Shown here piece by piece: positions 37,146 through 41,487 of a stretch of 54,996 bases of DNA. This stretch comes from a virus (taxonomy: Duplodnaviria > Heunggongvirae > Uroviricota > Caudoviricetes). Made by a program: the position numbers and the translations under genes. Within the stretch, counting starts at the first letter, position 1. Every line of letters begins with the position of its first letter. Under the pieces are notes generated by a model. The model saw only the letters and a list, made by a program, of their open reading frames with translations, did not search any database and was not told the origin of the DNA. The stretch lies in the IMG/VR virus record IMGVR_UViG_3300045988_171436, positions 1-54,996 of that record, one strand, 5' to 3'.

Positions 37146-38213
37146 TTAATGAAATTTATCTCGGATGAATTGTTGCGATGGTTTTTCAATGAATATATAT
37201 GACATATAGCTAATTGCCATTAATGTAAGCATGAATAAAATGAATACCTTGGGGCTGTAAAAAAGATCGCGTCCATAGCCAATCTTGTCAGCTAAATAAA
37301 CAACAATGATTTGTAAAGGAAAATGTAAAAGATAAGATGAATAACTGATATCGCCCAACCATTCAATTTTTTTCCCAAAATCGTTTCGTATTGCGCTAAT
37401 TGATACAAGGAAAAAGATTATGGAGGTAAATCCGAATAAGATAATTGAGAATATATCTGCTACTTGCAGGGTAAAGATAACTCCCCATGAGATCAATAGA
37501 AAAACACAAGCAAAAATAAAAAATAACTTTGCGCTAATATTTTTTATGGCCGCAATCGTAATTTTATAAGTCAGACCACCAATAAAGAAAGAGAATGCGC
37601 CGATCATTATGGGATTGTTAATTTTGAAAAAGTAGTACGACAATGCAACTATTAAAATTGATATGAATGTTGTTTTTGATGTGAACTTGCATAATATAAA
37701 AAATATCATGTACATAAGTACTTCAATCGACACGGACCATGTCGGGGCGTTGAAGGACCAACCTCGCTCAAATCCCCATGATTGAATCATCAATAAATTC
37801 AGAATGGCATGGTAAATGTCATTCATAGGATAAACAAAAAAATAATTATGACTTTTAAAGAAAATAATTTGTAATATTGCCACGGCAGCAAATGTAAATA
37901 TATAAAGTGGATATAATCTACTGACACGGTTAACTATAAAAGTTTTTGCTGAGGTTTTATTGCTGTGTATATTGTCAGCGTATAGATAAAAAAATATGAA
38001 TCCAGAAATCATAAAAAACAATTCGACAGCATATAAACCGTAATGATAAAAGACGGAAAAAAATTCATAAAAAGGTTGGCGGTTTATGATTATGTCAGAT
38101 GCAGCATTCTTTTTCATAAAAAAATGTTGCCAATGCCATAACACAACGGAAAGTGCGGCAAATCCTCTCAGAACATCCAGGGTATATATTCTCTTCCCAA
38201 AAACATTCGTCAC
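37146..38213 (-). CDS. Integral-membrane acyltransferase (acyltransferase-3 family; O-antigen acetylase-like)
   Basis: 355 aa, about 10 TM segments, N-terminal LDVLRGFAALSVVLWH motif; very AT-rich. Confidence 0.8.
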   Translation of the reverse strand: MTNVFGKRIYTLDVLRGFAALSVVLWHWQHFFMKKNAASDIIINRQPFYEFFSVFYHYGLYAVELFFMISGFIFFYLYADNIHSNKTSAKTFIVNRVSRLYPLYIFTFAAVAILQIIFFKSHNYFFVYPMNDIYHAILNLLMIQSWGFERGWSFNAPTWSVSIEVLMYMIFFILCKFTSKTTFISILIVALSYYFFKINNPIMIGAFSFFIGGLTYKITIAAIKNISAKLFFIFACVFLLISWGVIFTLQVADIFSIILFGFTSIIFFLVSISAIRNDFGKKIEWLGDISYSSYLLHFPLQIIVVYLADKIGYGRDLFYSPKVFILFMLTLMAISYMSYIFIEKPSQQFIRDKFH

Positions 38214-38704
38214 AACGAACCTCTTTTAATAAAGTCAAGTGATAATGAAAGATAAATATTGTAAACGAAAAAGCACTGGACTGGAACATATATCTCTGCC
38301 TATAATTTAACTAGGAAAATTTTACTAACGCAGTCATAATTCGTTCATGTATACCAGATGAAAGTACATGTTCTATGAAATAGGGTTTTGCCTGGAGTTT
38401 GAAGGTTTTTAACGATTATACCTGTTTAATCGACTCCCCATGTTTTTTGACATTATCCACCGCACACGATACTGGATGCCAGGTAAACTGATTTGCTGGC
38501 ATAAAGTCACTGAGAATTTTTTACCAACAATATCTTGCCACATCTTTTCCCGCACAGTTTCGGCAATAGAATCAGCGGGCAGCGGTCATCAATATTCACC
38601 AGACATTGATCTGCCGCACTATCTGACCGGTGTCCTGCTGAGAATACTAATTTCTTTTTTTGCAAGTGCTGTCCAATCATGATTGGGGGGGGGCCGGCGG
38701 AGTT

Positions 38705-38744
38705 GAAACCGCAGGTACGTTGTATGCAATAACGTGCTGCGGTT
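38705..38744. repeat. Conserved hairpin element, copy A (partner 39725-39765)
   Basis: GAAACC + stem + core ACGTTGTATGCAATAACGTGCT; stem AAACCGCAG/CTGCGGTTT. Confidence 0.6.
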
Positions 38745-38764
38745 TAATCTTATCAATTGAATAC

Positions 38765-39634
<870 letters not shown>

Positions 39635-39724
39635 CTAACCCTTTGAATTTACATAGCGCAAAAAGATACCTTTCCTCATAATGTGAGCTAATTTTATGTT
39701 TCGTTTGATGATCGGATCGGTCTC

Positions 39725-39765
39725 GAAACCCGTAGCCACGTCGTATGCAAGAACGTGCTACGACT
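39725..39765. repeat. Conserved hairpin element, copy B
   Basis: GAAACC + stem + core ACGTCGTATGCAAGAACGTGCT; stem GTAGCC/GCTAC differs from copy A but pairing is preserved. Confidence 0.6.
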
Positions 39766-40101
39766 GGCTGGTGAACTTCCGATAGTGCGAGTATTGAATG
39801 ATTTCCAACTGTTATCGATTTTGCGTATTTTTTGCATGAGAGGATTTTTACCTCCTCCCACCGATCCTCCATGGCTTTACGCCAGTGTCTCTGGTCTGCT
39901 ATGTGCCAGAAGCGGACGTTGCGGGACGTCAGATATCTAAAAAAACTAATGGTCCGCTTGGATAGATACTTACACAGGATGCAATAAAGAGTTTCTATTT
40001 CTTTGTGGTAGCAAACTTTGATTTCTGAAGGATAATACCTCCAATAAGTTGAAATCACATATATCGCTAAAGACTCTATACAACAACCAAGAGAGACCGC
40101 A

Positions 40102-41487
40102 ATGGATAGTGTCAGTAGTGTTGAGCGTTTAAGAACAAAAGCTTTTTATCAGTTGCTTGTGGATAGGCTTGGAACTGAGGCCTGGGCTGCTCGCAAAGCT
40201 GCATATTTCAAGCGCATAAGAGAGAAGGAGGCTAAGTTTAACATCAATCTGCCGATAGAGCCCCAGCTCTTCATACCAGCAGAAGATGACATCGACTGGT
40301 ACATTCTGGCGTCGTATCTGTCTCATGATTTTCCATATAGTGATGCTACTTACAGCAGCAGACGTATCTACCCCTATGCTATGGCCATCGGAGCTGTTGC
40401 AGACCAGCTTCGCAAAGTCCCATACGTCGATGATGTTCTGGACAAAATGCTAGCAAATAACAATAAACCAGAAACTCAAATTTTTGAGCTGCTGACGGCA
40501 TCGTTCTACCTAAAGAACGGCTATGAGGTTGCCTTCATCCCAGAAAGCAGCATTGTTTGGCCCGATGGAAAGACCAAAAAATCACCGGATATGCTTGTCA
40601 AGTTAGGTGATCTGGAGTTCTACGTCGAGTGCAAAAGGTCGGATAAGCAAACCAAGTACTCAAAGACAGAAGAGCAAGCCTGGGCCAACATCTGGCATCA
40701 ATTGAGCCAACATATGCTCAAAGTCGCACCATGGAACATTGTCGATATAATTTTCCATGAGCAGGTCGCCAGTGTGACTCCGGCAGACGTTATTAAAGCG
40801 GTGAATCTAGCCATTAAAGGGGGGACGGGAAAAGCTAATGAAGGTTCAATCAGTGTGGGAATACGAGCCATCGACAAATTAGGTCTCAGACGTCACTACA
40901 GAAAATTTTCAGTCAGAGCCAATAGCCCACAGCATGAATTGCTGGTATTTGGGGATCTAGATAGCAATGAGAAACGAAGTATCTCGACTATCGCTCAGAG
41001 AGTTATTCGTCCTGGCACCAATAACGATATTCTCAACATTTTTGTAGAGGATGTTGCAAAGTGCGTTGGAGCTCAGTGGCGCTGCGATCATGAGATTTCT
41101 CTTGGCCTCAGATCCAAGCATTTCAAGAGCTTGCTCAATGATGGAGTCATGCAGATTCCCCCTGATCGTGCTGGCGTGGTGCATATTTGGTATGAGACTT
41201 GCGAAGGCATAGATATTGAAGAACTACGTAGGGATAAAAACATGGAGCATATCTCGGCCTACGATGCCTCTAAAACAACTGTGTTGGGTGCTTTCCTGCA
41301 TGCCGTTAATTATTACCCATTAGAGGACAACTATGAGTGGGCTGAGACTGTTCAAGACTTTGCCCGTGTCCCGGATTTGATGGGGCTCTTCCTTAGACAG
41401 CCATTGATGCTTACATCTGACTCGACGCGTGGGGTCGAAGGTGTCACACATTGGGAGCAAGATAAGGCCGCAAAAAGCATGCGTTGA
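40102..41487 (+). CDS. PD-(D/E)xK nuclease-like protein with large unknown C-terminal region (461 aa)
   Basis: ELLTASFYLKNGYEV ... SPDMLVKLGDLEFYVECKRSDK gives the E / PD / ExK triad spacing. Confidence 0.5.
   Translation: MDSVSSVERLRTKAFYQLLVDRLGTEAWAARKAAYFKRIREKEAKFNINLPIEPQLFIPAEDDIDWYILASYLSHDFPYSDATYSSRRIYPYAMAIGAVADQLRKVPYVDDVLDKMLANNNKPETQIFELLTASFYLKNGYEVAFIPESSIVWPDGKTKKSPDMLVKLGDLEFYVECKRSDKQTKYSKTEEQAWANIWHQLSQHMLKVAPWNIVDIIFHEQVASVTPADVIKAVNLAIKGGTGKANEGSISVGIRAIDKLGLRRHYRKFSVRANSPQHELLVFGDLDSNEKRSISTIAQRVIRPGTNNDILNIFVEDVAKCVGAQWRCDHEISLGLRSKHFKSLLNDGVMQIPPDRAGVVHIWYETCEGIDIEELRRDKNMEHISAYDASKTTVLGAFLHAVNYYPLEDNYEWAETVQDFARVPDLMGLFLRQPLMLTSDSTRGVEGVTHWEQDKAAKSMR

What the first reader, a model, noticed from the sequence alone, without database searches (positions are those of the whole stretch)
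38685..38693. G9 homopolymeric tract between the GIY-YIG gene and the acyltransferase promoter region
A run of nine G (CAATCATGATTGGGGGGGGGCCGGCGG) lies in the intergenic region upstream of the acyltransferase gene. Such tracts are hotspots for slipped-strand mispairing and could give phase-variable expression, or could be an assembly artefact.
Basis: seen in the sequence. Interest (0 to 1): 0.25.

Follow-up and report, generated by a model that had tools for sequence, protein, structure and literature searches.

The report
Variable G-run in tmRNA-derived prophage relic
The run of nine G is real and its length differs between E. coli strains, but it sits in a decayed, non-coding leftover of a phage attachment site copied from the tmRNA gene, and nothing in the sequence suggests that it switches the nearby acyltransferase gene on and off.

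Summary
The G9 run is at 38685-38693 as described. It is the only G/C run of 8 or more in the window, and none occurs elsewhere in 320 kb of related loci. The window is an SfV/e14-like E. coli prophage; a near-identical copy lies at thrW/proA. The run lies 71 nt after the GIY-YIG stop and 471 nt before the Acyl_transf_3 start (both genes on the minus strand). Read on the minus strand, the run falls in a decayed copy of the tmRNA (ssrA) 3' end: GCGGTTTCAACT-CCGCCGGCCCCCCCCCAA against ssrA GCGGGTTCAACTCCCGCCAGCTCCACCAA. Next to it is sequence homologous to the attP arm of the ssrA-type phage LLS. Related copies form a graded series: CTCCACC, then CCCCCACC, C6, and C7-C11. Among 24 close copies there are nine alleles (G7-G11 followed by C, CC or CT), and the allele differs between loci with 0-1 SNP in about 2.1 kb of flanks. 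Three of the four A7/T7 control runs show one deviant each. The run is therefore a genuine slippage hotspot and not an assembly artefact. No credible promoter spans it (best match 7/12), better promoter candidates lie 45-106 nt from the gene, and the small ORFs beside it are broken in 9 of 24 copies. Best reading: a neutral, hypermutable relic. Phase-variable control is unlikely (about 10%).

The parts
38685..38693 (.). G9 homopolymer (C9 on the minus strand). It is length-polymorphic, G6-G11, among related prophage copies.
38694..38695 (.). CC directly after the run. This is C, CC or CT in other copies; CT is the ancestral state (compare ssrA ...AGCTCC...).
38683..38712 (-). Decayed tmRNA (ssrA) 3'-end fragment covering the T-arm, the 3' acceptor strand and CCA. 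The window reads GCGGTTTCAACT-CCGCCGGCCCCCCCCCAA; ssrA reads GCGGGTTCAACTCCCGCCAGCTCCACCAA. The C-run replaces CTCCACC.
   Evidence: phage LLS annotation and Rfam tmRNA hit on LLS; no tmRNA/tRNA call in the window itself
38673..38684 (.). Perfect 12-bp palindrome CAATCATGATTG abutting the run. It is conserved in the LLS attP arm and in the related prophage elements. Function unknown.
38614..38682 (.). Relic of the attP arm. It is homologous (about 72-78%) to the arm next to the tmRNA fragment in phage LLS and to the unannotated elements of other E. coli prophages, and it lacks 12 nt that they have.
38706..38745 (+). Long imperfect hairpin (AAACCGCAG...CTGCGGTTT). The same hairpin separates pinE and GIY-YIG in sister prophages and occurs in HK97, HK106 and 2H10. 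It is probably a plus-strand or bidirectional terminator and a module junction.
38655..38661 (.). T7 run. It is T7 in 14, T8 in 9 and TTTCTTT in 1 of 24 copies, and the T8 allele frameshifts both small ORFs beside the G-run.
37146..38213 (-). Acyl_transf_3 family acyltransferase (355 aa). It is AT-rich cargo and is probably a surface-polysaccharide O-acetyltransferase by family; the substrate was not tested.
38765..39538 (-). LEM-3-like GIY-YIG domain protein (257 aa from the RefSeq start).

Best explanation
The G9 run (C9 on the minus strand) is a hypermutable but functionally neutral homopolymer inside a non-coding relic. The relic is a degraded copy of the last ~30 nt of the tmRNA gene ssrA plus the adjoining phage arm, which is the core of an attP site of an ssrA-integrating lambdoid phage. 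It has been carried along as passenger DNA beside prophage cargo genes. Inferred: point substitutions in the already C-rich acceptor/CCA end (CTCCACC) removed the interrupting T and A and produced a pure C-run. Once the run passed about 6-7 bases, replication slippage began to change its length faster than the flanks accumulate substitutions. Shown: the homology, the graded series and the length polymorphism. Inferred: neutrality and slippage as the cause. Also inferred: the present arrangement (acyltransferase, arm, tmRNA fragment, hairpin, GIY-YIG) arose by recombination at the shared hairpin between a lambdoid-type cargo region and the pinE-hairpin-GIY-YIG module of SfV/e14-like prophages.
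For: (1) Homology. Window 38614-38712 matches the attP region of phage LLS, where the depositor annotates a 'tmRNA pseudogene' and the attP core and where Rfam tmRNA scores E=2e-8. Pairwise and multiple alignment with K-12 ssrA places the run on the 3' acceptor strand/CCA. (2) Graded series at the same position: LLS CTCCACC; L007 C-CCACC; L008 CCCCCGCC; L034 CCCCCACC; IAI1 C6; then C7-C11. (3) Hypermutability. There are nine alleles in 24 close copies, and the allele differs in 5 of 9 pairs that have 0-1 SNP in 1.3-2.1 kb of compared flanks. Of the four A7/T7 control runs in the same alignment, three have one deviant and one has three. (4) Non-coding. There are no Pfam hits for the adjacent ORFs, and the T7/T8 polymorphism breaks them in 9 of 24 copies. 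Length changes of +/-1 and +/-2 are tolerated. (5) No promoter spans the run on either strand. Candidates nearer the gene are better. (6) The intact acyltransferase coexists with G6 (IAI1) and with a T-interrupted site (L034), and in L035 with an IS3 inserted between the run and the gene. (7) In E. coli, mononucleotide runs are indel hotspots and 8-bp G:C runs are outliers (PMC8510543).
Against: Neutrality is inferred from the absence of signals, not shown. The total spacer length clusters at 10 bases (G8CC plus G9C = 13 of 24). A weak -35/-10-like pair flanks the run, and its spacing would be the optimal 17 nt in exactly those alleles. The cargo gene belongs to a class (surface-modifying acyltransferases) that is often phase-variable in other bacteria. 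No read-level or expression data were available. Some allele differences could be homopolymer sequencing errors.
Confidence: 0.72

Rival explanations
1. The tract is the spacer of a phase-variable promoter. On the minus strand, a -35-like TTTCAA (38708-38703, the former T-loop) and a -10-like AATCAT (38684-38679, half of the palindrome) flank CTCCGCCGG plus the C-run. Slippage would change the spacer from 15 to 19 nt and so tune or switch transcription towards the acyltransferase.
For: The spacer is 18 nt in the window, 15-19 nt across alleles, and the commonest alleles (G8CC and G9C, 13 of 24) give 17 nt. The tract and the acyltransferase are co-oriented, and the cassette and the spacer occur in the same number of genomes, 49 of 5,426. 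A prophage-borne phase-variable O-acetyltransferase is known in E. coli (NeuO of CUS-3, PMC3046976). Poly-C promoter tracts modulate fim genes in Bordetella (PMC1891110).
Against: The hexamers match only 3/6 and 4/6 (7/12), which is below the scanner's threshold and common by chance. Both hexamers are inherited parts of the tmRNA T-loop and a conserved palindrome rather than new features. The leader would be about 455 nt long. Candidates of 8/12 lie 45 and 106 nt from the start codon. The intact gene coexists with G6 (spacer 15) and with a T-interrupted site, and in L035 with an IS3 between the tract and the gene.
Confidence: 0.1
2. The length differences, and the G9 count in this window, are sequencing or assembly errors at a homopolymer, and the true tract is invariant.
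For: Homopolymers of 8 or more are error-prone on all platforms (general knowledge). The window's allele G9CC is unique among 29 copies. In strain CT01 the chromosomal copy and the 43.7-kb circular copy differ at the T7/T8 run, and the circular copy has a shortened acyltransferase annotation, which shows that some assemblies carry homopolymer errors.
Against: Independent assemblies with identical flanks agree on the allele (L018/L024 G9C; L020/L029 G8CC; L002/L003 G8C). Alleles also differ in base content (C, CC or CT), not only in length. Three of the four A7/T7 control runs in the same assemblies have one deviant of 24 and the fourth has three. A G7 run in the tail-fibre gene is invariant in 10 loci. 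The graded evolutionary series cannot be produced by error.
Confidence: 0.08
3. The tract is part of a plus-strand small RNA (related to Rfam CssrB) that ends at the 38706-38745 hairpin, and tract length modulates that RNA.
For: There is a sub-threshold CssrB match at 38626-38741 on the plus strand (17.8 bits) whose 3' hairpin aligns well. The plus-strand fold is more stable than shuffles (z=-2.8). A 10/12 promoter-like site lies on the plus strand at 38277-38306.
Against: The score is far below the gathering score of 76. Only the hairpin is shared, and that hairpin is simply the end of pinE in sister prophages (L010 scores 32.4 bits across the pinE stop). The central 88 model positions are absent. 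No conserved promoter is nearby. No paper on CssrB was found in the library.
Confidence: 0.04

Closest known systems
tmRNA (ssrA) 3'-end duplications in attP sites of ssrA-integrating phages and islands (for example phage LLS attP; CP4-57 at K-12 ssrA)
   Same: The sequence is homologous to the T-arm, acceptor strand and CCA end of ssrA, and to the phage arm that follows it in LLS.
   Different: Here the fragment is degraded (no Rfam or ARAGORN call). It is not next to an integrase. It is not at the prophage boundary. The near-identical prophage copy (L005) is integrated at thrW, not at ssrA. The CCA/acceptor part has turned into a homopolymer.
Promoter homopolymeric-tract phase variation (Bordetella fim poly-C; Neisseria porA/opc poly-G/C)
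   Same: It is a G/C homopolymer of 7-11 bases, length-polymorphic between isolates and upstream of a surface-modification gene. Bordetella shows many such polymorphic tracts (PMC1891110).
   Different: In those systems the tract lies within or immediately upstream of a mapped promoter. Here no promoter of acceptable quality spans it, and it is 471 nt from the gene.
NeuO of prophage CUS-3 (E. coli K1)
   Same: It is a prophage-borne O-acetyltransferase in E. coli whose expression is phase-variable through a simple repeat (PMC3046976, PMC13001214).
   Different: NeuO uses heptanucleotide repeats at its 5' end (PMC3046976) and, from my own knowledge, belongs to the hexapeptide-repeat acyltransferase family. 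Here the gene is an Acyl_transf_3 membrane protein with no repeat in its coding sequence, and the tract is far upstream.
Rfam RF02799 CssrB (Shigella chromosome-encoded sRNA B)
   Same: They share the terminal hairpin.
   Different: The score is 17.8 bits against a gathering score of 76, and the body of the model is missing. The shared part is the pinE/late-operon terminator hairpin that is also present in HK97-like phages.

Membership tests
Simple-sequence contingency locus (phase-variable tract) | A repeat tract long enough to slip, with length polymorphism among closely related strains | tested here: met
   G6-G11 across 29 copies. There are nine alleles in 24 close copies, and alleles differ on flanks with 0-1 SNP.
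Simple-sequence contingency locus (phase-variable tract) | The tract lies inside a reading frame, or within or directly upstream of the promoter of the controlled gene | tested here: not met
   It is non-coding. It is 471 nt from the start codon. The best hexamer pair spanning it scores 7/12 and the scanner finds none. Better candidates lie 45-106 nt from the gene. No start-site mapping exists, so a weak promoter cannot be excluded.
Simple-sequence contingency locus (phase-variable tract) | Reversible length change within a culture that switches expression or phenotype | not testable with these tools
   This needs reads, reporter fusions or phenotyping.
tmRNA gene (Rfam RF00023) | A covariance-model or ARAGORN match with a tRNA-like domain and a tag reading frame | tested here: not met
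   ARAGORN finds 0 genes in the window. There is no tmRNA hit at E<=10 in 38100-39000. Only about 30 nt of 3'-end similarity remain. It is a fragment, not a gene.
Active attP/att core of an ssrA-integrating phage | A core identical to the 3' end of the target gene, next to an integrase, at the element boundary in the prophage state | tested here: not met
   The core has diverged (23 of 29 aligned positions including the run). In the near-identical prophage copy the integrase lies about 36 kb away beside tRNA-Thr/proA. The relic is internal, with GIY-YIG and further cargo to its right.
Rfam RF02799 CssrB | A score at or above the gathering threshold (76 bits) | tested here: not met
   17.8 bits in the window and 32.4 bits in L010.
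Intrinsic terminator | A G+C-rich hairpin followed by a U-run | tested here: inconclusive
   A strong hairpin lies at 38706-38745, followed on the plus strand by TTTAATCTTATC. The scanner reports no terminator (the loop exceeds its limit). The same hairpin directly follows the pinE stop in L010.

The most novel reading that the evidence does not exclude
A decayed tmRNA/attP fragment has been recruited as a phase-variable promoter. The former T-loop would supply a -35-like hexamer and the conserved palindrome a -10-like hexamer. The homopolymer that grew out of the acceptor/CCA end would act as a slippage-tuned spacer (15-19 nt), giving on/off or graded expression of a prophage-borne Acyl_transf_3 O-acetyltransferase in E. 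coli. From my own knowledge, slipped-strand promoter switches are rare in this species.
Probability: 0.08. Interest if true: 0.6.

Novelty: new member of a known kind. Interest (0 to 1): 0.2.

Why it matters
As it stands, this is a tidy example of how a slippery homopolymer can arise by decay of a C-rich tRNA-like 3' end inside a defunct attachment site, and of how fast such a run then changes (G6 to G11 within one prophage lineage). In practice the site is an indel-prone marker. It will generate spurious variants in E. coli genome comparisons, and it could serve as a fast molecular clock for this prophage. It would matter more if tract length were shown to affect expression of the acyltransferase, because slipped-strand control of a prophage surface-modifying enzyme in E. 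coli would bear on phage resistance and serotype variability. The sequence evidence does not favour this.

Tried and rejected
1. tRNA/tmRNA gene: ARAGORN on the whole window found nothing, and Rfam at E<=10 on 38100-39000 gave only sub-threshold hits (CssrB, sR3, DicF, sR58).

2. Coding frameshift switch: the ORFs touching or abutting the run (38619-38768 minus, 38507-38680 minus, 38440-38682 plus) were considered. The latter two have no Pfam match and are frameshifted by the T7/T8 polymorphism in 9 of 24 copies. The first spans the hairpin.

3. Promoter spanning the tract: the tool scan and my own relaxed scan found nothing better than 7/12.

4. Origin from tRNA-Leu, whose genes carry 8-bp G:C runs (PMC8510543): rejected, because the relatives trace base by base to ssrA.

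5. Genome-contig scan with the anchored pattern: 0 hits, so no data from other species.

6. Literature search for CssrB: only unrelated papers.

7. Close phage relatives of the acyltransferase, to borrow a known regulatory layout: none (best 38% identity).

8. My early reading that about 1,250 genomes carry the relic was corrected. About 450 records match the relic part at 60-80% identity. About 800 match only the hairpin plus the GIY-YIG 3' end.

Full report
OBSERVATION

The window reads CAATCATGATT-GGGGGGGGG-CCGGCGG, with the nine G at 38685-38693. This is the only G/C run of 8 or more in the 54,996-base window. One such run is not very improbable: the iid expectation is 0.23, and 18 of 100 dinucleotide-preserving shuffles contain a G9/C9.

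Both neighbouring genes are on the minus strand:
- An Acyl_transf_3 protein at 37146-38213 (PF01757, E=2e-24).
- A LEM-3-like GIY-YIG protein at 38765-39538 (PF22945, E=2e-14).

RefSeq annotates both the same way in near-identical E. coli loci and leaves the 551-nt spacer unannotated. The run is 71 nt past the GIY-YIG stop and 471 nt before the acyltransferase start.

CONTEXT

A near-identical region in E. coli ZYS9073 shows the setting. It is a prophage of about 40 kb integrated beside tRNA-Thr and proA, with an HK97-type head, a Mu-like contractile tail, and e14-like ymfQ and stfP genes. The acyltransferase and GIY-YIG genes lie in the cargo region between the tail-fibre genes and the right end. 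In sister prophages the invertase gene pinE occupies the place of the acyltransferase and ends directly at a long hairpin that precedes GIY-YIG (L010). The cargo to the right of GIY-YIG differs from strain to strain: cytosine methyltransferase, retron Ec67, SIR2, lipase, 'lysogenic conversion protein'.

WHAT THE SEQUENCE AROUND THE RUN IS

A sensitive BLAST of 38600-38790 against 5,426 complete E. coli genomes gave three classes of match:
- About 50 near-identical records.
- About 450 records matching 38614-38744 at 60-80% identity, at unannotated places.
- About 800 records matching only the hairpin and the GIY-YIG 3' end.

The single informative phage hit was phage LLS. There the matching stretch ends in a feature the depositor calls 'tmRNA pseudogene' together with the attP core, and Rfam's tmRNA model scores E=2e-8 on it.

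Alignment with K-12 ssrA shows that, on the minus strand, the window reads GCGGTTTCAACT-CCGCCGGCCCCCCCCCAA where ssrA reads GCGGGTTCAACTCCCGCCAGCTCCACCAA. This is the T-arm, the 3' acceptor strand and the CCA end. The sequence that follows (ATCATGATTGGACAG...) is homologous to the phage arm of LLS attP.

The window itself gives no ARAGORN or Rfam tmRNA call, so it is a decayed fragment and not a gene. It is also not an active att site. In the near-identical copy the integrase sits at the other end of the prophage, next to tRNA-Thr.

The moderately similar elements lie inside other prophages, next to DinI-like genes and to cargo such as ipaHd (L007-L009).

HOW THE RUN AROSE

Aligning the same position in progressively closer relatives gives a graded series:

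| Source | Sequence at the site (minus strand) |
|---|---|
| ssrA and LLS | CAGCTCCACCAA |
| L007 | CAGC-CCACCAA |
| L008 | CCGCCCCCGCCAA |
| L034 (O8:H8) | GCCCCCACCAA |
| IAI1 and L036 | CGGCCCCCCAA (six C) |
| SfV/e14-like family, including the window | seven to eleven C |

One family member (L030) keeps the ancestral T, reading G9CT on the plus strand. The homopolymer therefore grew out of an already C-rich tRNA-like end by loss of the interrupting T and A, followed by expansion. This step is an inference from the series.

IS IT UNSTABLE?

I collected 24 close copies: the window, 14 RefSeq loci, 5 IMG/VR contigs and 4 metagenome contigs.

Tract alleles:

| Allele | Copies |
|---|---|
| G7C | 2 |
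| G7CC | 1 |
| G8C | 2 |
| G8CC | 7 |
| G9C | 6 |
| G9CC | 1 (this window) |
| G9CT | 1 |
| G10C | 3 |
| G11C | 1 |

Among nine pairs with 0-1 SNP in the 1.3-2.1 kb of flanks that could be compared (about 2.1 kb in most pairs), five differ at the tract. For example, ZYS9073 has G10C and EC01307 has G9C with 0 SNPs in 2,104 positions.

Controls in the same alignment:
- A7 at 37836, A7 at 38118 and T7 at 38804 each have a single deviant sequence; A7 at 38057 has three.
- T7 at 38655 splits 14 (T7), 9 (T8) and 1 (TTTCTTT).
- A G7 in the tail-fibre gene is invariant in 10 loci, although that run is coding.

Independent assemblies of identical haplotypes agree on the allele (L018/L024, L020/L029, L002/L003). 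This argues against random sequencing error as the main source. Mutation-accumulation work in E. coli describes mononucleotide runs as indel hotspots and 8-bp G:C runs as outliers (PMC8510543). I conclude that the run is a real slippage hotspot. The exact count in this window cannot be confirmed without reads.

DOES IT CONTROL ANYTHING?

Evidence against control:
- The run is not in a gene. The two small ORFs that abut it have no Pfam match, and the T7/T8 polymorphism truncates or alters them in 9 of 24 copies.
- The promoter scanner finds no sigma-70-type site near the run on either strand.
- A relaxed scan finds nothing on the plus strand.
- On the minus strand the scan finds only a 7/12 pair: TTTCAA, the old T-loop, and AATCAT, half of the conserved palindrome.
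- Pairs of 8/12 lie 45 and 106 nt upstream of the acyltransferase start, inside its AT-rich cassette.
- The same intact acyltransferase occurs with G6 (IAI1) and with a T-interrupted site (L034). In L035 an IS3 is inserted between the run and the gene.

Points in favour of control:
- With the 7/12 pair, the run would form a spacer of 15-19 nt, and the commonest alleles give 17 nt.
- Surface-modifying acyltransferases are often phase-variable elsewhere. NeuO of prophage CUS-3 is an E. coli precedent, though it works through heptanucleotide repeats at its 5' end (PMC3046976). Bordetella fim promoters use poly-C tracts (PMC1891110).

I put this reading at about 10%.

THE HAIRPIN

The 38706-38745 stem-loop dominates the plus-strand fold (MFE -39.4 kcal/mol, z=-2.8). 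It is the element that follows pinE in sister prophages. It is the only part responsible for the weak Rfam CssrB matches (17.8 and 32.4 bits against a gathering score of 76). It also occurs in HK97, HK106 and 2H10.

It appears in three settings:
- pinE, hairpin, GIY-YIG.
- Arm, tmRNA fragment, hairpin, DinI side.
- The window, which combines the left side of the second setting with the right side of the first.

This suggests recombination at the hairpin.

VERDICT

The artefact alternative is rejected for the run as such. The phase-variable expression idea is not supported by the anatomy.

The feature is best described as a hypermutable, probably neutral homopolymer that evolved inside a decayed tmRNA-3'-end/attP relic at a prophage module junction. 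It is a new instance of known kinds (a polymorphic homopolymeric tract and an att-site remnant) and of low to moderate interest.

Noticed in passing
window 38614-38745; L007 3001-3141, L008 3001-3132, L009 3001-3129: An unannotated element of about 130-190 nt (attP-arm relic, tmRNA 3' fragment and hairpin) recurs at 60-80% identity in about 450 complete E. coli records, with up to 5 matching places per genome in that search. It lies inside prophages that are not at ssrA, always beside cargo genes (ipaHd, DUF4760, a hypothetical gene, or here the acyltransferase) and often next to a DinI-like gene. It may mark a recombination junction for cargo exchange.
   Followed up: partly
L002 (NZ_CP081794.1, 43,671 bp) and H12 (NZ_CP081704.1, 43,680 bp): Strains CT01 and AH02 each carry the prophage both in the chromosome and as a circular 'plasmid' record of about 43.7 kb. 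This suggests an excised, possibly replicating phage genome in the sequenced culture. The two CT01 copies differ at the T7/T8 run, and the circular copy has a shortened acyltransferase annotation.
   Followed up: partly
window 39600-41487 and the equivalent positions in L001-L004, L010, L025, L028, L030: The slot to the right of GIY-YIG is a variable cargo hotspot. In different strains it holds a DNA cytosine methyltransferase, a retron Ec67 RT/endonuclease, a SIR2 protein, a lipase, a 'lysogenic conversion protein' or DUF6650. In the window it holds a 461-aa ORF (40102-41487) with only a weak AHJR-like restriction-endonuclease match (E=0.0065).
   Followed up: no
window 38277-38306 (+): A promoter-like site (TGGACT-18-TATAAT, 10/12) points away from the acyltransferase into the spacer, towards the hairpin. 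It could give a non-coding plus-strand transcript of about 430 nt, or it could be a chance match in AT-rich DNA.
   Followed up: no
window 38582-38617: An imperfect hairpin GCGGTCATCAAT...ATTGATCTGCCGC gives a weak Rfam DicF match (14.5 bits, E=3.5), which is probably chance.
   Followed up: no
window 38655-38661: The T7 run is T7 in 14, T8 in 9 and TTTCTTT in 1 of 24 related copies. IAI1 has T9. This is a second, less variable homopolymer polymorphism 24 nt from the G-run.
   Followed up: partly
L035 3383-4515; L037 3648-4345; H138 (NZ_CP074047.1): Insertion sequences have hit this cargo region repeatedly: an IS3 between the acyltransferase and the relic, an IS1 replacing GIY-YIG, and an IS1 inside the acyltransferase gene.
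   Followed up: no
L033 (E. coli IAI1, NC_011741.1 2722827-2728121), L034, L036: The same acyltransferase and relic cassette sits in a different prophage next to yfhH, with different baseplate and tail-fibre genes and a 648-nt hypothetical gene in place of GIY-YIG. The cassette therefore moves between phage backbones.
   Followed up: partly
L005 13678-15089: The near-identical prophage in ZYS9073 carries a Kiwa KwaB-like anti-phage gene and a neighbouring hypothetical gene between the Q antiterminator and the lysis genes.
   Followed up: no
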